From contig JBJCIZ010000708.1 in NCBI GenBank assembly GCA_051294375.1, positions 1-11,983 on the forward strand: 11,983 nt of DNA, given 5' to 3'. Each line of letters begins with the position of its first letter. Position 1 is the stretch's first letter. This document shows, piece by piece, positions 1-11,728 of this stretch. A program made the position numbers and the translations under genes. The stretch comes from Paraspadella gotoi (lineage: Eukaryota; Animalia; Chaetognatha). Below the pieces are notes generated by a model. The model was not told where the DNA came from. It ran no database searches and saw only the letters and a list, made by a program, of their open reading frames with translations.

Positions 1-677
1 TTGAATAATTAATTAATAGATAACTAAATGAATTTATTGAATGAATAATTGATTGATTAATTAATCATTTATTAATTAATTAACTAATTGATTAATTAAC
101 TGATTAATTATTTTATTAATTAATACTTCTTGCATTTAAATTTAATATAAAAAGAAAAAGAAGCATAATCAATTAGTGAAACAGGTTTTTTGTTTTTTCC
201 TTTTAAACTCATTTCCATGAAGACGATTCCGCCGAAACCTGATTTCCAGCTTAATTACACACTTTCCTACCCACATAAAAAATTTCAAGTCAATCGCCCA
301 GTCCACTCATGAGTAATAGATGTTCAAACAGTAAAATATATTTTTTTGGTTTTTTCCATTTAAACTCATTTCCACTCGCACGATTCCATGGAAACTTCAT
401 ATCCAGCTTAATCACACACTTCCCTACCCACACAAAATTTCTTTCCAATCCATCCATCCAATCACGAGCAATTAGAGTTTTTTGATAAGGTGGGACGGAC
501 GGACAGACCGACAGACAGACGGACGGACGAACATCGTTTTTTTTCCATAATTTATCATAATTCAATGTTCTAACATGATACAAGTGAATGCCCGACAATA
601 TTGAGAGGGCGGACCGACGGAACGACAAAGTGAATTATAGAGTCGGGATCTGCTTATAAGCAGATCCGACGAAAAAA
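1..677. mobile_element. Non-autonomous Helentron/DINE-1 (HINE)-like element, left end outside the window
   Basis: AT-rich TAAT/TTAA repeat at 1-125. Two ~157-bp subrepeats starting AAACTCATTTCCA at 205 and 362. (GGAC/AGAC)n microsatellite at 493-529. Terminal palindrome GTCGGGATCTGCTTA-TAAGCAGATCCGAC (642-670) followed by an A-run. This layout is typical of HINE/DINE-1 elements. ORF 290..628 is spurious. Confidence 0.6.
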
Positions 678-1120: not shown

Positions 1121-1537
1121 CGAATTATGCAAGTTTACCAAATTATGCAAGTTTACAGAATTATGGCAAGTTTGACCAAATTAATGCAAGTTGACCAAAT
1201 TATGAAGTTGACCGAATTATGCAAGTTGACCAAAATTATGCAAGTTGACCAAATTATGCAAGTTTACCAAATTATGCAAGTTTACAGATAATGCAAGTTG
1301 ACCAAATTATGCAAGTTGACCAAATTATGATAAGTTGACCAATTATGCAAGTTGACCAAATTATGCAAGTTGACCAAATTATGCAAGTTGACCAATTATG
1401 CAAAGTTGACACAAATTATGCAAGTTGACGCAAACTTATGCAAGTTAACCACATTATGCCAGTTGACTAAATTATTCTAGTTGACTAAATTATTCTAGTT
1501 GACAAAATTACGCAAGTTGACCAAATTATGCAAGTTG
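1121..1537. repeat. 18-bp minisatellite, unit AAATTATGCAAGTTGACC, about 23 copies
   Basis: Directly visible tandem units with 1-nt indels and no unique spacers; more diverged units (TTATTCTAGTTGACT) near the right end. Confidence 0.95.
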
Positions 1538-1726
1538 GTATTGGCGCAACAACTGGTATTGATTGATCAATTGATATATAGATATTTCCATAAATTTATA
1601 AAAAAGTCTGTCATGATTTGTTATGATCTGTTTAGATCACAAATTGAAAGTCAGAAAGAATTATCGTGATTTACAGCAGATTAGCTTTTCGTATCATGGT
1701 GGACTAAAATCTTCCAACAGTTCATC

Positions 1727-1915
1727 AGCGACCATTGGTGCCGGAGGCAAGTCATTTGCCTCCCAACCCAAAGGTCAGGGGTTCTAGCCCGGTGGTCGCT
1801 TAGCAGTTAAGAGGGATGTAACATGGTGTTACAGCCTGATCCGAAGCTCAGGGACTGCTTATATTGAACGGTTCTGTCATTAACGCATAACAATTATCGC
1901 TGTCTCTTCAATATG
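1727..1915 (+). mobile_element. tRNA-derived SINE-like element (head 1727-1800, Gly-like CCC loop) with structured body
   Basis: 8-bp acceptor-like stem AGCGACCA(1727-34)/TGGTCGCT(1793-1800) enclosing 74 nt in total. A-box-like TGGTGCCGGAGG and B-box-like GGTTCTAGCCC(1780-90). D and anticodon arms are imperfect, so not a functional tRNA. 3' boundary uncertain. Confidence 0.65.
1802..1859 (+). ncRNA. Partial twister-ribozyme-like motif in SINE body
   Basis: Outer stem AGCAGT/ACTGCT; GAGGG(1811-15); hairpin TGTAACA-TGG-TGTTACA; G; CCTGA-TCCGAAGC-TCAGG, like twister P4/L4 (UCCCAAGC type). No recognisable P1/P2. Confidence 0.4.
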
Positions 1916-2129
1916 CAGATTGCAGATCCGACGTTGTTTGCTCAAACTTGTTTTTTTCTTTAGATGCCTGATTCTCCTTTTCTAAAAAACCTCTTTAAAA
2001 TACGGGGAAAAGGATGTCCTAATATTTTTGGGATCACAACGCCATCGAAAATAATCAAAATTATGGTAAAAATCTTAAGAGAAAATCAAAGTTTTTTTAA
2101 TTGTGCAATGAATTTTTATTTATTCAAAT

Positions 2130-2172
2130 ACGGACATGTTTCGGCTTGTAGTGTTCAAGCCTTCATCAGCGT
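2130..2172 (-). ncRNA. Minimal type I hammerhead ribozyme of PLE
   Basis: Minus strand reads ACG-CUGAUGA-A-GGCUUG-AACACUA-CAAGCC-GAAACAUGUC-CGU. Complete core, perfect 6-bp stem II, palindromic ACAUGU stem III, GUC triplet, 3-bp stem I ACG/CGU. Confidence 0.88.
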
Positions 2173-2627: not shown

Positions 2628-3173
2628 TTATGCAAATGAAGGACATTGACGAAGGTGACGGGTCATTGGCGCGTCAATGGTTGAGAGGAGAGTAAATGCC
2701 GCATTGGGGATTGTACCAGGAGGAAAGATCCCCAGGGCCACTCTTATATCTCTTTGGCCTGATACGCCTGCCGGCTGCCCTCTTCTCGCCTGCTGGCGAG
2801 GCGGGCGGTTGTCCATTCTTGCCGCTTTTGCGACAGGAGTGACGGACTCCTCTCCCTCCTCCTGAAGCTGTTATTGCTGAGTTGCTTCATCTGAGTGAGA
2901 GGCATCGTTTGTCCATTGCCTGCGCAAGGGTCTCCACCTGTCTCGTTGAGTATAGATAGGGTAATCATTGTGCGGGTGTGGTGGCGGCGGGGCCTCCACC
3001 ACGCTTTTGATAAGCGTATCATAGCTTGGAGGGAGGTCGAATCGTCCTCCATCACGGTTCAAAGAGGGCTCGAGAGCTTTGATGTAAATTGCTTCTCTAA
3101 TACCTCTTGAAAACCAGTTTTGGTCATGGGACAGCACGAGACAGTCTGACTCCCTGAACAGATGGCCTGTACA
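2628..3173 (-). pseudogene. PLE ORF 3' fragment: GIY-YIG endonuclease C-terminus plus low-complexity extension
   Basis: CTGHLFRESDCLVLSHDQNWFSRGIREAIYIKALEPSLNRDGGRFDLPPSYDTLI matches the PLE endonuclease pattern GH.F...v.iL....W..R.ikEAi.I....P.LNRD.G...L...Y. ORFs 2871..3137 and 2628..2816 share a frame, separated by one TAA at 2871-73. Confidence 0.85.
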
Positions 3174-3269
3174 GATGGTAAAAATCTTAAAGGAAGAATA
3201 AATAAATTCAGCCTAATCATAGCACAGTCTCTCACGAGTCAAAGTTCAACTGACAGAAAAAAAAGTGAC

Positions 3270-3400: not shown

Positions 3401-4454
3401 AGAAAACTTAGACAACCTCAGCAAAATTTAAAATTACCTGAATTTCTTAGGACGTCTCACTATTAAATCTGTATAATTAGGTAAAATTATTACTACGTCT
3501 TTGATTTTTTCAGGCAATAAAATACTACTAATTCTAATATACCTTACAAAATTTGAGTTGAAAATTCGCGTTATTGCAGTTTTTAGAAAGGTTTAAAAAA
3601 TAGGTGTTTTTAGCATTTTTAGGGCTTTTTTGGGTCTGTATTTCTTTCATGGGTTATCCAAATTTAAAATTTTTTTATATATTTGTAATCAGTAACATTT
3701 CACCAATAGTTTGGCATAAATTTTTTTTAAAAAAATATTATTTATCAAAAAATCATATTTTGTAGTAATATATTAAAAATCACTATTTAGTTAAATAATA
3801 AAAAATTATAATTTGATTACAGGAATAAAATTGCCTATCAATCAACTATTAATTTCTATAATAAAAAGTGAACTTAAAATAAAAAATAAATAATAAGCTA
3901 ATTATTATAATTAGCAACTATGCATAAATTAATAAAAAAAATTTTTTTATTCAGTCTAACACTTTACCATTAGACAAGTAATGTTAGATTAATTTTTAGT
4001 GAGAAAAAAAATTATATCGTTCAAGTATTTTGAGCAGAGTATGCAAATTAAATTTTTGTTTAAAAATAATGCTCAAAACAAAACTTCAAATTTTTTTTTG
4101 AAATATAGAATGGGGAATAGACCATACCGAGTTCCATCCCACACATGCATATCAAGTCATTCCATTCATTATTATAGAAGATATAGCTTCCCTGGACTTA
4201 TGAAGGAAAGCCAAGACCGGTACTGTATCAAGTTCGAAATAAATAAATATATAAATAAATATATAAACAAATAAATTTATAAATAATATATAAATGAATA
4301 AAAAATAAATAAACTGTTACGATAGTAGAAATAATTACAAAAATTAACTAGCATCATTCTTTCAACTCGCATCATTCTTTCACTTAATTAATTAAAACAT
4401 TCATGAGTAAGCATAAATAATAAAAATTCTAGTCAACTTGACTTCGATTTTTTT

Positions 4455-4772
4455 CATGCAAACTCATTTCCACTCCTAGATTCCCATCGAAACTTTATAT
4501 CGTGCTCAATCACACACTTTCCTACCCACACAAAACTTAATTTCAATCCATCCATCCAATTATGATTAATTCGATTAATTATGGCTAAAATTTTAAAAGA
4601 TTCAAATAAAGTGATTATGTTTTTTCCATTTAAACTCATTCCACTCGCACGATTCCATCGAAACTTCCATCATGCAACTTCTAACCACACAAATTTCATT
4701 CCAATCCATCCATCCATCCATCACGAAGAATTGGAGCTTTTTGCTAAGGCGGGACAGACAGACGGATGGACA
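4455..4772. mobile_element. Second, partial copy of the HINE-like element at 1-677 (same orientation)
   Basis: Subrepeats AAACTCATT(T)CCACTC at 4460 and 4632; CACACACTTTCCTACCCACACAAAA and CAATCCATCCATCCA shared with 205-480; ends in GGGACAGACAGACGGATGGACAT, like 492-535. Confidence 0.8.
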
Positions 4773-4859
4773 TAGAGTCTACATAGCAAGTAGAATATAC
4801 TGGCTTGCTCATGGCGTTACGGTAAATCCTCAAATGACATGTTTCAATTCTGTGTTGCG

Positions 4860-5680
4860 AGAGAGAGAGAGAGAAAGAGATATATATATATAAAATGGTT
4901 GCCAACAAAGAACTAAGAAAATAAAATAAGTTTTGAAAACCAAAATGGTGAAAATGAAATTATGAAATTGTGAATAGTTGCCTCACTTTCTGACTGATTT
5001 TAAAAATGGCGACAAAAAAGATTCAAAAATTGTTTATTACAGTTTAAAATGGGCAACAAGGGAGTAAAAGCATTTAATTTGTTTATAAACAAGCGCAAAT
5101 AAAACAAAATATTGGTTAAAAATATAAACGGTCCTAAAACCATTCGAAGTTGGAGGCAACTGCCGGACAGTAATATCGAGTTGATGCTGTTTGGATCAGG
5201 GATAAATTCTTTAGGGAAAATACTACACAAATGTCCATTGAGCCTGTTGCACCTGCCAAGAGCCTTCTTCTCACCTTGGGCAGTCATTGTTGTGGCTTCT
5301 TTTGCAACAGGAGTGACGGACTCCTCTTCCTCTATCTAAAGTATTCTTTTTGAGGGACGCCCGTTCGTGGAGACAAACTGAGTTGCTTCAGTAGGGTTGA
5401 CCTTATTTTGCTTCCCTTAACTCTATCTCATCTCTTCTTACGCCCCATCCACTCTCCATTCTCAGTTCTTTGTTGGAAACCGTTATCTCTCTCTCTCTCT
5501 CCCTCTCTCTCTTTCTCTCTCTCTATCTGTTTTTCTCATCAAATATTTGGTAAAAATCTAATTTTAGTTTTGGCTGATGAAAACTCACCAACATAGATCT
5601 GAAACATGTCTGGTGTTTGAAACCCAAAAATTGTTGTTTGTATACAATAAATTATAAAAACTTTTGTTTTCCTTAAATTT
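4860..5680. mobile_element. Decayed second PLE copy with inversion (4860-5395 minus, ~5405-5680 plus)
   Basis: TTTTGCRACAGGAGTGACGGACTCCTCT and CTGAGTTGCTTCA are shared with 2826-2889 in the same orientation. 5468-5680 matches the reverse complement of 2075-2255: CTTTGTTGGAAA, (CT)n, GCTGATGAA...GAAACATGTC, AAAACTTT...CTTAA. Confidence 0.75.
5571..5613 (+). ncRNA. Degenerate hammerhead ribozyme homologue
   Basis: CTGATGA(5574-80) and GAAACATGTC(5601-10), with the same 20-nt spacing and flanks as the 2130-2172 hammerhead; stems I and II no longer pair well. Confidence 0.6.
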
Positions 5681-8980: not shown

Positions 8981-10586
8981 AATCTACTCGATTACAAAAT
9001 ATATTTAGAATATTTGATATCAGTAAGAAGATTTATTAGGACAGACAGACATCTACATAGATAGGCAAGTTAACCTGGTCGTTGTATATATGTTATTATT
9101 AAATATTTTTACATTTTACTGATAGGAAATGATGTCAATATTTGTTGATGTTAACATTTCAATCAATCGACCCACGCGTTGAAAAATAATTTACAAAAAA
9201 AGGTCATTTTCCAACGCGCATTTTTTAAATCAAATCTGCGTTCGTTATATTTTCTTTTTGGTTCACTTAAATTTTTAGCTTCGGCCGAGTGACTTAATTG
9301 GTAATAAAAAAATTGATTTTCTTTGATAACTTTTGAACAAAAATGATAGAACGATGAGACTGGTATCATATTAAAGCCATAATTATGGGACATCTTTTTC
9401 TCCTTTTTCTCAAATGTTTCAAGGATTTTTTTAAAATCTGGATCGGAATCTTAGTCAAAAGTATAACAACTTTTGAAATTAAATTAAACACACTTGGCCG
9501 TATTTAAAAAATAAATAAATATGGATTCGAAAGAGAAAAGACTGAATTATGTTTCTTATACAAGCAAAAATTTTCTATACTTCAAATGTTAATATAATTA
9601 CTAAGGATAATGAATTATCATTTTGTTGAAAACAAAAAAAAATAAAAATTCATGTTGGAACCTTAAAAACATATGATTTAAATATGAAAATTTAGGAGTT
9701 AAACTTTGTTCGCGGCTGATTTAAAAACTACTGACATAGGGCTAAAAGACTGTATTATCAGATTTTTAATTTTTGTTCATCTTCAGGTGCAAATTAAACC
9801 TTGCATAATGCCCATTAGCTATATTAATATAACAATTTTTTATTAAAAAAGCACTACAATCTTTTAATAACACGCTAATGCATGTAGCTGTATGGTAAAT
9901 TTGTTGTTTTTTATTTTTTATTATAATACAAGGCTTTTATCAATAAAGGGGTAAATTGCAAGAAAATGAGTGATTTCAAGGCTCCATATTGATACTATGA
10001 TATCAATGAATTTTCTTTGTTCGCGGCATCGAAATGTACCTAAGACATTGTAGTTTCATTAGCTAATCTTTGTTTTTAATTTTAAAGGGCATGTTTGGCA
10101 AAAAGTAAGAAACAAAAATGACAAAAATTTTAATAGAAAAATTTGGATTAATTGCTATTATTTCTTAACTTAACGTCAATTTATTTTTTTCGTTATGTGC
10201 TTGAAAGTTAGGCTAAACCTAACAGAATCGGAATCAGTGCATGACGCTGTATATTTATTTGACTTATACAGTAAATACGCAATAAAAAAAATTTAAAAAG
10301 AATTCAGACTAAGCGCCGTGTTTATTTTCAGTATTTTTTAGTCAAGACCTTTATGGATTTTTTTGTTCCGGCGGCGTTGGATAGCCCAAACACTGCAGTT
10401 TCAGAAATCATCCATGTTTTTGTAATATTTACTGGCGCTACTGGTGCAAAAATTGCTAGGCAACCAAAATATCCGAAACCGCTTTGTTCTTTCGATTTTT
10501 TTAAGCGGCGGAGCGACATATCTAATCTACAATCCCAAAAAAACCCATATAAAAAAAAACAAGTCGGTTTTTGCCAACCCTGTTAG

Positions 10587-10766
10587 GAGCGGAAGAGCGA
10601 GGTCATCAAGGGCAAGTGTGTAGTGTTTACTCACCTTTCCAAAGAATACGCTGGAGCTGTGTTGATAACCGAGAGAGAGGTAAGTGAGGAGCTTCAACGC
10701 CGACTGTCGAACTACCATTTTTTTCTGGACAATGGAGACTACTGCCCAAAGACTCGGCGCCTGTGA
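10587..10766 (+). CDS. Putative exon (or pseudo-exon) encoding the C-terminal half of a BAH domain
   Basis: Acceptor-like TTTTGCCAACCCTGTTAG, then open frame ERKSEVIKGKCVVFTHLSKEYAGAVLITEREVSEELQRRLSNYHFFLDNGDYCPKTRRL*. The I.GKC.V ... FF....Y.P.TRRL pattern resembles the end of BAH domains. Upstream exons not resolved. Confidence 0.45.
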   Translation, partial: ERKSEVIKGKCVVFTHLSKEYAGAVLITEREVSEELQRRLSNYHFFLDNGDYCPKTRRL

Positions 10767-10849
10767 TTCGTAGACGTTGATCAAGGGTGAGAATCGCCAT
10801 TCCGCTGAAGACAAAATTAAGATAGGGTGGAAGCAACAATTTTCAGATT

Positions 10850-11131
10850 AAGAATGAATTTATTCTTTAACAAGGATCACGTCAGGCTCACCAGTGTGGA
10901 TTAGGCGCTAAGTGGGCAGAAGATGACTAATTGACTATCCATAACTTCTATAACCCCCTCTAGCAGACATGGAAAGGGTCCTGGGCTTGGAACCAGGCTT
11001 GAGGGTTTGCCACGCCCCCAAGGCGGCTTAAGGCCGTCCTCACTCTTCCCGCAGGGTAGGTACCGGGTTGGGATTGAACCCGGTACCTAGTGGTCATGAG
11101 CTGATGGCTTTACTCAATGAGCCACCGGGTC
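10850..11131 (-). mobile_element. tRNA-derived SINE (Met-like CAT loop) with structured body
   Basis: Minus strand GACCCGGTGGCTCATTGAGTAAAGCCATCAGCTCATGACCACTAGGTACCGGGTTCAATCCC. A box TGGCTCATTGAG (11124-11113), B box GGTTCAATCC (11080-11071), followed by a GC-rich body. 3' end approximate. Confidence 0.75.
10971..11050 (-). ncRNA. Twister-ribozyme-like motif in SINE body
   Basis: GGGAAGAGU-GAGGA-CGGCCU-UAA-GCC-GCC-[UUGGGGG..CCCUCAA]-G-[CCUGG-UUCCAAGC-CCAGG]-ACCCUUUCC. The order UAA..GCC-P3-G-P4/L4 matches twister; P1/P2 imperfect. Confidence 0.55.
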
Positions 11132-11728
11132 ACAACTGAAAGAGTCATGCTTATAGGCGGGGTGAACCTAGGCAATGCCCGACTACAGTTATAAACATTA
11201 AACAATAACAATGAAAAGGCTCAGATGCTAAGTCTATTACAGTGGTAATTTGCAAGGTCAACAGTTCAACGGGGAGAATTGAATTGAAAATATAATTGTG
11301 AGCTTTAGGTACAGTAGCATCCGTCTAGAATTTCTGAGACGGCAAGCTCTGTAACTCGAGTACAAATTATAATTTTAAAGAGAGCTTTTGTCTTGATATC
11401 GAGTACACATATGGCTACTAAAACCTTTCAAAAAAACTCAAAATTATATTTTTAATGGTTGGACAGGCTTATTAGACCAATTTTGGGGTGGGAAATTTGA
11501 TGGTGAGGTCGAAATTGCTCAGTTTAGTCGAAGTTGACTACCGGGCCCTGAACGAGCATTTTCCAATTTTTCCCACATTTTAAAACGTTTAATATCATTA
11601 TTCTATTTAAATTATTTTTTTAAACTAAAGAAAAAGTAAATTACACTTTTTATTATATAAACTTTAATATTTATCATAATTGTATAAAAATGTATAAAAA
11701 TATATTTAATATAAACTTTTTGCTTTCA

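What the first reader, a model, noticed from the sequence alone, without database searches (positions are those of the whole stretch)
1727..1859. A second SINE with a different tRNA head has the same fold, with covariation
Seen: after a different tRNA-like head (CCC loop) the order is again outer stem - GAGGR - hairpin - single G - CCUGR-UYCNAAGC-YCAGG - outer stem. The outer stem (AGCAGU/ACUGCU) and hairpin (UGUAACA/UGUUACA) differ completely in sequence from the 10971-11050 copy yet still pair, and the fifth P4 pair is A-U here versus G-C there. Loop UCC can pair with GGA(1814-16). The UAA/GCC segment is absent. Inference: the structure is selected across two SINE families, either as a twister-derived non-catalytic domain (LINE recognition, Pol III transcript processing) or a compact ribozyme variant. 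I cannot tell from the window whether it has been described.
Basis: partly seen in the sequence, partly recalled or inferred. Interest (0 to 1): 0.8.

Follow-up and report, generated by a model that had tools for sequence, protein, structure and literature searches.

The report
Twister ribozyme in tRNA-headed repeats
This stretch is a broken copy, missing 18 bases, of an abundant short repeat whose other copies place a complete twister-type RNA fold, predicted to cut itself, right behind a tRNA-like head; a second repeat family in the same genome is built the same way, and both likely cut as pairs and likely spread with Penelope-type jumping genes.

Summary
The stems and motif order are real, and two high-copy families share the fold. 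The 'compact variant without UAA/GCC' is not a family feature. Contigs from four public runs show that other copies carry 18 more bases between 1816 and 1817: the pseudoknot partner, the cleavage site (UAA), one P2 strand and GCC. The window copy is a deletion derivative. Intact copies of both families hold every type-P5 twister core element, with compensatory changes in pseudoknot T1, P2 and P4. P1 is replaced by a 6-base self-complementary linker, which fits a domain-swapped dimer. A similar twister subtype (palindromes for P1, P3, P5, often the same bulged P2) lies at 6 of 13 published Naiad 3' ends that I read. Both families keep 31-56 bases upstream of the head and lack a target duplication, unlike classical SINEs. 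Best reading: Sm-alpha/retrozyme-like elements with a twister instead of a hammerhead. Cleavage, dimer dependence and the mobilising partner are untested. The scan noted palindromic twisters in Naiads of other genomes before; I found no tRNA-headed form in its notes or in ten paper searches.

The parts
1696..1910 (+). Family 1 element, whole (215 bp here; about 233 bp in copies without the deletion)
   Evidence: Loose-end clusters with unrelated flanks at 1696 and 1910 in X4, X2, X1
1696..1726 (+). Leader upstream of the head, with a TATA-like TAAAA at 1705-1709, 23 bases before the acceptor-like stem
   Evidence: in register with the family 2 TATAA; promoter role inferred
1727..1801 (+). tRNA-Gly/Trp-like head; A-box-like 1736-1747, B-box-like 1780-1789
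   Evidence: ARAGORN pseudogene call at 85% threshold; fold z -4.65; boxes by pattern
1802..1808 (+).
   Evidence: Pairs with 1853-1859; A1802G in 23-38% of depth keeps a G-U pair
1811..1814 (+). P2 strand with one bulged base (1812); its partner strand is deleted in this copy
   Evidence: Read against the loose-end consensus; same bulge position as family 2 and three mussel Naiads
1815..1816 (+). Conserved G-A of loop L1 (G is the predicted general base)
   Evidence: Position relative to Rfam Twister-P5 consensus; catalytic role from PMC5408937 and PMC11662667
1816..1817 (+). Site of the 18-base deletion: lost are the T1 partner (CGG), the 6-base self-complementary linker, the cleavage site UAA, P2 strand CCC and GCC (T2 partner)
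   Evidence: Loose ends in 4 of 4 runs
1817..1834 (+). P3 hairpin and the following G
   Evidence: loop base 1824 varies in 16-53% of depth; of the stem only the loop-closing base 1823 (2-13%) and junction rows 1817-1819 are listed
1835..1852 (+). P4 and loop L4
   Evidence: Same motif as in Rfam-confirmed P5 twisters L004, L006, L009; G1843A in 3-13% of depth, at a CpG
1853..1859 (+). P5, 3' arm
1860..1910 (+). 3' tail ending TCTTCA; no A-tail, no run of four T
10895..11187 (-). Family 2 element, whole (293 bp); ends read TG...CA; no target duplication outside them
   Evidence: Loose ends at 11187 (133, 160, 105, 24 records); left end from the depth step only
11132..11187 (-). Family 2 leader with TATAA at 11155-11151, 24 bases before the head
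   Evidence: 11153 differs in 9-18% of depth
11059..11131 (-). Family 2 tRNA-like head; A-box-like 11124-11115, B-box-like 11080-11071
   Evidence: Boxes by pattern; fold z -4.54; ARAGORN only at 75%, where background is 16 calls per window
10971..11052 (-). Complete type-P5 twister fold: P2 strand 11045-11042 (bulge 11044), L1 GAGGA 11041-11037, linker 11036-11031, UAA 11030-11028 (predicted cut 11030/11029), P2 11027-11025, T2 GC 11024-11023, P3 11022-10998, P4/L4 10997-10980
   Evidence: 10 of 10 in the pairing test; Rfam Twister-P5 15.4 bits, E 0.51, below the 37.6 cut-off; variation pattern

Best explanation
The stretch is a copy, lacking 18 bases, of a high-copy tRNA-headed repeat whose intact members carry all core elements of a type-P5 twister ribozyme; intact copies are predicted to self-cleave, likely as pairs, in a retrozyme-like cycle likely driven by Penelope-type (Naiad) retroelements. 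Shown: the deletion, the full core in both families, covariation between them, self-complementary linkers, fixed element ends that include sequence upstream of the head, no target duplication, and a similar twister subtype at published Naiad 3' ends. Inferred: (1) Pol III starts at the head. (2) A lone transcript is mostly off, because the linker or T1 strand pairs with the P2/T2 strand and hides the cleavage site. (3) Two units, in a tandem transcript or in trans, pair through the palindromic linker and form two hybrid active sites, as Penelope hammerheads are thought to. (4) Cutting at two sites frees a permuted unit that holds tail, leader and promoter, can be circularised, and is inserted by a Penelope-type reverse transcriptase/endonuclease as single, mostly dead-end copies. 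This copy has lost the cleavage site and cannot cut itself. My odds by step: deletion derivative of a full twister 0.9; intact copies cleave in some setting 0.75; dimer-gated and Penelope-mobilised 0.45.
For:: the same 18 bases at 1816/1817 in 4 of 4 runs; majority base at 11031 (97-99% of depth) makes the family 2 linker a perfect palindrome; common variants fall in the P3 loop (11006, 11009, 11013) and the P2 bulge (11044); no row at 5% or more for the catalytic G and A, T1, T2, P4, L4 or the P3 stem. Between families T1 changes G-C to C-G and A-U to G-C; family 2 copy scores 10 of 10; none of the 66 prokaryotic/viral pattern hits exceeds 7; linker self-duplexes rank in the top 1.1% and 0.2% of 4,096 hexamers and form no hairpin alone; no run of four T in either element; the palindrome duplex nests without crossings only in the swapped dimer (0 versus 48); in the family 2 monomer the linker pairs with P2/T2 strand bases at probability 0.88; twister fold with palindromes in 6 of 13 Naiad 3' ends read by eye, bulged P2 in 3. 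PMC11662667: P1 and P2 imperfections are tolerated, loss of the general-acid A is not. PMC6765202 section 11: palindromic Penelope hammerheads likely cleave as dimers; Schistosoma Pol III SINE-like elements use a hammerhead to free units from multimers.
Against: No cleavage data, and no demonstrated RNA (one search lists no holder on record as RNA). Tandem masters were hardly seen: one 1910-to-1696 joint in one contig at single-copy depth, spacer unknown (15 of 18 joints shown); none among 15 of 130 shown for family 2. The co-folded minimum-energy dimer of the family 2 window copy is not the twister dimer (pseudoknots not modelled, and this copy's linker has only four pairs). P2 has probability 0 in the pseudoknot-free monomer. 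Rfam score is far below cut-off. No Naiad was shown in this organism; the window's Penelope-like pieces carry hammerheads. Naiad twisters have two palindromes, these have one. Sharp ends and TG...CA termini (family 2) are not typical of 5'-truncating Penelope insertions. Family 1's intact form was read from loose-end consensus lines, not from one full-length record.
Confidence: 0.55

Rival explanations
1. The twister cuts as a monomer: the linker closes as one pair plus a four-base loop. It trims the Pol III transcript about 26 bases behind the head, giving a tRNA-like piece and a 5'-OH body; the palindrome is only a minimal P1.
For: P1 is reported dispensable and P1 defects do not lower cleavage (PMC11662667). 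The outer linker bases pair in both families (G-U, C-G).
Against: The inner linker bases are complementary too in both families, which a hairpin does not need. The monomer hides the site. Cutting would separate promoter from tail, yet copies keep both, and no loose-end cluster at the predicted cut is among the rows shown.
Confidence: 0.2
2. The elements are solo long terminal repeats (or tyrosine-recombinase units) of a plant-type LTR retrozyme or Cassandra-like element: Pol III promoter and twister sit inside the repeat, and the two repeats of a full element supply the dimer.
For: TG...CA ends in family 2 and possibly family 1; 230-290 bp size; retained upstream leader; plant retrozyme LTRs of about 350 bp carry a ribozyme.
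Against: No 4-8 bp duplication outside the family ends in either copy (the only hit, CAGT, overlaps the ends). Flank consensus agreement is 0.38-0.44, with no shared primer-binding site or purine tract visible. The twister subtype points to Naiads.
Confidence: 0.12
3. One reading: the fold is a non-cutting scaffold, captured from a retroelement 3' end and kept for recognition by its reverse transcriptase, as in a classical SINE.
For: A ribozyme inside a SINE body would truncate it (Kojima, PMC5786205). The inhibitory hairpin could keep it off for good. Copies are mostly full-length monomers.
Against: Both catalytic nucleotides, both pseudoknots and the palindrome are kept in two families whose stems have turned over completely. 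The retained upstream leader is not explained by priming on a Pol III transcript.
Confidence: 0.1
4. The domain is a second decayed tRNA (dimeric tRNA SINE); P4/L4 is a T-arm with a B box.
For: ARAGORN calls 10971-11046 at 85% and 1777-1860 at 80% as tRNA-like; the family 2 loop resembles a B box.
Against: Those thresholds give 0.9 and 4.7 calls per shuffled window. Family 1's loop breaks the B box while keeping T1 by compensation. UAA, GCC and L1 match the twister consensus.
Confidence: 0.03

Closest known systems
Twister ribozyme, type P5 (Rfam RF02684)
   Same: Order P2-L1-P1-UAA-P2-GC-(P3)-P4/L4, catalytic G and A, three-pair T1 and two-pair T2; P4/L4 nearly identical to Rfam-confirmed phage examples L004, L006, L009.
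   Different: P1 hairpin replaced by a 6-base palindrome; three-pair P2 with a bulge; both P3 and P5 present; below the Rfam cut-off (15.4 versus 37.6 bits); this copy lacks the cleavage strand.
Schistosoma Sm-alpha hammerhead SINE-like elements (known to me through the review PMC6765202; original papers not read)
   Same: Short non-coding repeat with a Pol III-type promoter and an internal self-cleaving ribozyme; single copies would be dead ends.
   Different: Twister, not hammerhead; tandem arrangement not shown here; fixed ends that include an upstream leader; two independent families.
Naiad Penelope-like elements (Craig et al. 2021, PMC8557442)
   Same: Twister fold with palindromes in place of P1, P3 and P5 near the 3' end of 6 of 13 consensus ends read, bulged P2 in 3. 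The paper's main text does not mention twister.
   Different: Naiads are 3.4-4.4 kb, coding, and carry two palindromes. These elements are non-coding, tRNA-headed and have one. No Naiad shown in this organism.
Animal non-LTR retrozymes (PMC7229834; bioRxiv 10.64898/2026.07.22.740005)
   Same: Size (about 300 bp), non-coding, ribozyme per unit, proposed Penelope origin; monomer share varies from 0 to 1 among families.
   Different: Defined by type I hammerheads in tandem repeats and circular RNA; no tRNA head is mentioned in the preprint; circular RNA not tested here.
T-variant twisters of Perere-3 in Schistosoma mansoni (PMC8501958; abstract and introduction read)
   Same: Twister with an incomplete P1 in a retroelement.
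   Different: There the ribozyme is at the 5' end and copies begin at the cut; here it is internal, behind a tRNA-like head, and copies do not begin at the cut.

Membership tests
Twister ribozyme type P5 | General-base G in L1 and general-acid A 3' of the cut | tested here: met
   Family 2 copy and majority; family 1 majority. The window's family 1 copy lacks the A.
Twister ribozyme type P5 | Pseudoknot T1 (three pairs, L1-L4) and T2 (GC of L2 with L4) | tested here: met
   Complementary in both families, two compensatory changes in T1; lost in the window's family 1 copy
Twister ribozyme type P5 | Stems P2 and P4 | tested here: met
   P4 5 of 5 pairs; P2 3 of 3 with one bulge; P2 is not predicted without pseudoknots
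Twister ribozyme type P5 | P1 hairpin between L1 and the cut | tested here: not met
   Six-base palindrome that forms no hairpin alone; P1 is reported dispensable (PMC11662667)
Twister ribozyme type P5 | Rfam RF02684 gathering score | tested here: not met
   15.4 bits, E 0.51, for family 2; no hit for the deleted copy; controls 41.6-53 bits
Twister ribozyme type P5 | Self-cleavage at U/A | not testable with these tools
   No assay; only contigs, no raw RNA reads
tRNA-derived SINE | tRNA-related head with A and B boxes | tested here: inconclusive
   Family 1 called at relaxed threshold; family 2 by boxes only; no Rfam tRNA hit
tRNA-derived SINE | Dispersed high copy number | tested here: met
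   Thousands of contigs per run with unrelated flanks
tRNA-derived SINE | 5' end at the Pol III start, A-rich or simple-repeat tail, target duplication | tested here: not met
   31 and 56 bases upstream of the head are part of the family; no such tail; no duplication outside the ends in 2 of 2 copies
tRNA-derived SINE | 3' tail shared with a partner LINE; match to a catalogued family | not testable with these tools
   No genome held; Dfam, Repbase and SINEBase not available
Non-LTR retrozyme / Sm-alpha type | Type I hammerhead in each unit | tested here: not met
   Twister on the sense strand; only antisense hammerhead half-cores
Non-LTR retrozyme / Sm-alpha type | Tandem repeats | tested here: inconclusive
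   One head-to-tail joint in one contig; short-read contigs and cut tables
Non-LTR retrozyme / Sm-alpha type | Monomeric circular RNA | not testable with these tools
   No raw RNA reads listed
LTR retrozyme / solo LTR | TG...CA ends with 4-6 bp target duplication | tested here: not met
   TG...CA in family 2, but no duplication outside the ends; two copies only

The most novel reading that the evidence does not exclude
These are tRNA-promoted, non-autonomous satellites of Naiad Penelope-like elements that arose at least twice in one genome, and their twister is a natural dimer-gated switch: off as a monomer through a self-masking hairpin, on when two units pair through a palindromic P1 and swap halves.
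Probability: 0.35. Interest if true: 0.8.

Novelty: new variant of a known kind. Interest (0 to 1): 0.62.

Why it matters
Twister ribozymes are common in animal genomes, but the papers I read tie them to a role only in one fluke LINE. A twister kept intact behind two different tRNA-like heads would extend the Sm-alpha/retrozyme design from hammerheads to twisters. It gives a 230-290 bp test object for how Penelope-type elements without hammerheads process their RNA. A palindrome-gated twister would be a natural concentration- or tandem-dependent ribozyme, missed by Rfam and easy to assay. The copy pointed at is itself only a dead deletion derivative.

Tried and rejected
Whole genome: none held. 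Rfam on the window and on 1715-1900: nothing relevant. Expression: no RNA holder listed; X9 is only guessed to be RNA, so it says nothing on transcription. Short-linker twister in prokaryotes or viruses: 4 viral and 62 genome pattern hits all failed the pairing test, and none of 79 hits had a downstream L4. Metagenome scan: the pattern demanded a U before UAA, which, returned in the same turn, showed is not the family 2 majority. Its 2 hits (L012, L013) have P4/L4 and palindrome-like stretches but no matching L1 and no tRNA call at 90%. Co-folding did not give the twister dimer. Host gene near family 2: Pfam Usp38-like N-terminal domain, E 0.002, below cut-off; homolog search found nothing, so organism and intron context stay unproven. 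Searching the Naiad supplement with six exact loop 9-mers found no twister, because the loops differ; reading 3' ends did. A hammerhead on the antisense strand of family 1 needs flank bases outside the family and has a poor stem I: rejected. A T-variant model (copies start at the cut) was rejected, since ends map to 1696 and 11187. Deletions clustering at the cut site were not evident in the joints shown. No covariance model was built: only one intact copy was held as a sequence. The original Sm-alpha paper was not held.

Full report
Observation. The P4/L4 pattern occurs at 1834-1852 (+) and 10980-10998 (-) and in none of 200 shuffles; the pattern came from these two copies. Default ARAGORN finds no tRNA. 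At 85% it calls 1727-1801 a Gly/Trp-like pseudogene, against 0.9 calls per shuffled window; the second head appears only at 75%, where background is 16 per window. Rfam gives nothing for 1715-1900. For 10920-11145 its lowest E-value is Twister-P5 (15.4 bits, E 0.51, cut-off 37.6).

Other copies. No genome is held. Nine runs of one coded organism hold part of the stretch; I laid four of them at 80% likeness. Both elements are abundant and dispersed, with unrelated flanks. Family 1 spans 1696-1910 and family 2 about 10895-11187. In all four runs, records that stop at 1816 or start at 1817 continue with the same 18 bases (283 and 214 records, agreement 0.70-0.85). Read by eye, these bases supply CGG, a six-base linker, UAA, CCC and GCC. 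Depth across 1817 is 0.2-0.3% of depth at 1800, a ratio exaggerated by clipping of short contigs. None of the 32 long pieces listed spans the stretch, and how many loci carry this deletion is unknown. The window copy also differs from the majority at seven further positions (1719, 1731, 1757, 1777, 1800, 1880, 1885). It is a decayed deletion derivative.

The fold. Three phage loci with the same P4/L4 are type-P5 twisters above the Rfam cut-off, and that call prints the consensus order. Both families follow it: P5 arm, AA, P2 strand, L1, linker, UAA, P2 strand, GC, P3, G, P4/L4, P5 arm. T1 and T2 are named as in PMC5408937 (passages). T1 is GGA with UCC in family 2 and CGG with CCG in family 1, two compensatory changes. 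T2 is GC with GC in both. P2 has three pairs and one bulged base in both; that base is C, A or U among family 2 copies (11044). P3 and P5 are unrelated in sequence. In family 2, ten positions between 10971 and 11052 are listed as variable: three in the P3 loop, the bulge, two in P5, the linker end, and three P2 bases at about 1-9% (one keeps pairing). None is a catalytic, T1, T2, P4 or L4 base (5% threshold). In family 1, G1843 of T1 is A in 3-13% of depth, at a CpG. A pairing test scores the family 2 copy 10 of 10 and 66 prokaryotic and viral pattern hits 7 or less; the test was designed on these families, so it shows specificity, not independent discovery. PMC11662667 (passages and half of section 32) reports that P1 and P2 defects are tolerated and that loss of the general-acid A abolishes activity. 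So intact copies are plausible ribozymes and this copy is not.

The linker. Where P1 should be, both families have six self-complementary bases; the family 2 majority is a perfect palindrome (11031, 97-99% of depth). Their self-duplexes rank in the top 1.1% and 0.2% of hexamers and neither forms a hairpin. The duplex is compatible with P2-P5 without crossings only if two molecules swap halves. In the family 2 monomer the linker pairs with the P2/T2 strand at 0.88, hiding the site; by eye family 1 can form a similar four-pair hairpin. Against this, the co-folded minimum-energy dimer was a different structure and P2 is not predicted without pseudoknots. I saw the shrunken P1 myself; the dimer reading and the Naiad link came from earlier scan notes.

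Link to Naiads. I tested that lead on published sequences. Craig et al. 2021 (passages, section 6, supplement metadata and search hits) say Naiads lack canonical hammerheads; the main text has no 'twister'. Of 13 of the 54 consensus 3' ends that I could see, named by file order, six show a P5-type twister by eye: Mley, Naiad-1_Movir, Mgal, Bpla, Mphi, Scon. All six have palindromes in place of P1, and Mgal, Bpla and Mphi have the same bulged P2. The shown parts of CGi, Sglo, Olur, Tgra, Pmar, Mcor and the last entry do not. No Naiad was shown in this organism.

What kind of element. Both families include sequence upstream of the head (31 and 56 bases) with a TATA-like box 23-24 bases before it, in register in a pairwise alignment. 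Neither has four T in a row on the sense strand or an A-tail. No 4-8 bp duplication lies outside the family ends; a CAGT repeat overlaps the family 2 ends. A transcript from the element's own Pol III promoter would not carry the leader, so plain SINE retroposition does not explain fixed 5' ends (inference). Copies do not begin at the predicted cut, unlike Perere-3 T-variants (PMC8501958, abstract and introduction). A cycle through multimeric or circular RNA explains leader and ribozyme together, as described for Schistosoma hammerhead SINE-like elements and Penelope elements (PMC6765202, passages and section 11 part 2) and animal retrozymes (PMC7229834 passages; bioRxiv 10.64898/2026.07.22.740005 first part and passages; its supplements were not seen). 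The weak point is that tandem masters were barely seen (one joint), and sharp TG...CA ends leave a solo-LTR or recombinase route open. Kojima 2018 (passages) notes that a ribozyme in a SINE body would cause truncation, which favours a gated or silent ribozyme.

In print? Ten searches (listings seen) combining twister with SINE, tRNA, retrozyme, Penelope, palindrome, dimer or Pol III returned no paper on a tRNA-headed twister repeat or a natural palindrome-gated twister. The library lacks most subscription journals, and Dfam, Repbase and SINEBase could not be checked. Roth 2014, Kosutic 2015, Ferbeyre 1998 and Cervera 2014 were not read. The A-box, B-box, TATA and Cassandra descriptions are recalled knowledge. 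The scan's notes hold palindromic Naiad twisters in other genomes but no look-alike of either family.

Verdict. The shared fold is real; the proposed compact or non-catalytic variant is an accident of one copy. What stands is a pair of tRNA-headed repeat families with an intact, P1-less, Naiad-type twister: a new variant of the ribozyme-bearing SINE-like/retrozyme kind, with cleavage and partner still to be shown.

Noticed in passing
window 2133-2169 (-), 2871-3212 (-), 5574-5612 (+): Penelope-type remnants: two canonical hammerhead cores with a palindromic stem III, and an ORF piece that looks like a GIY-YIG endonuclease end (recalled motif; no Pfam hit).
   Followed up: partly
window 1696-1728 (-) and 10912-10925 (+): Antisense hammerhead half-cores (CUGANGA) at the family 1 leader/head junction and, in the majority allele at 10918, in the family 2 tail; both tails share TCTTCA. 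The family 1 5' end also resembles a short motif at the Penelope remnant ends (near 2063, 3175, 5551). Unexplained.
   Followed up: partly
window 10530-10847 (-): Possible exon of a USP38-like gene (Pfam E 0.002, below cut-off). If real, the family 2 copy lies in sense orientation about 90 bases upstream of it.
   Followed up: partly
window 1123-1548: 18-bp tandem minisatellite, about 23 units.
   Followed up: no
window 188-530 and 4443-4775: A repeated element of about 130 bp followed by GACA/GGAC runs, four partial copies; looks like a Helitron-type interspersed repeat (recalled resemblance).
   Followed up: no
window 1922-1957 and 11199-11240: Further high-copy repeats begin right after each element.
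   Followed up: no
L012:100-175 and L013:455-555: Animal-looking metagenome contigs with twister P4/L4, P3 and palindrome-like stretches before UAA, but no matching L1; possibly decayed Naiad-type twisters.
   Followed up: partly
Supplement of PMC8557442, 3' ends of Naiads CGi, Sglo, Olur, Tgra, Pmar: These oyster and ark-shell Naiads share a different conserved 3' motif with a palindrome instead of the twister; it may be another ribozyme-like RNA.
   Followed up: no
L004, L006, L009, L010: Canonical type-P5 twisters in phage contigs (L004, L006, L009 above the Rfam cut-off; L010 has the same motif sequence as L006).
   Followed up: yes
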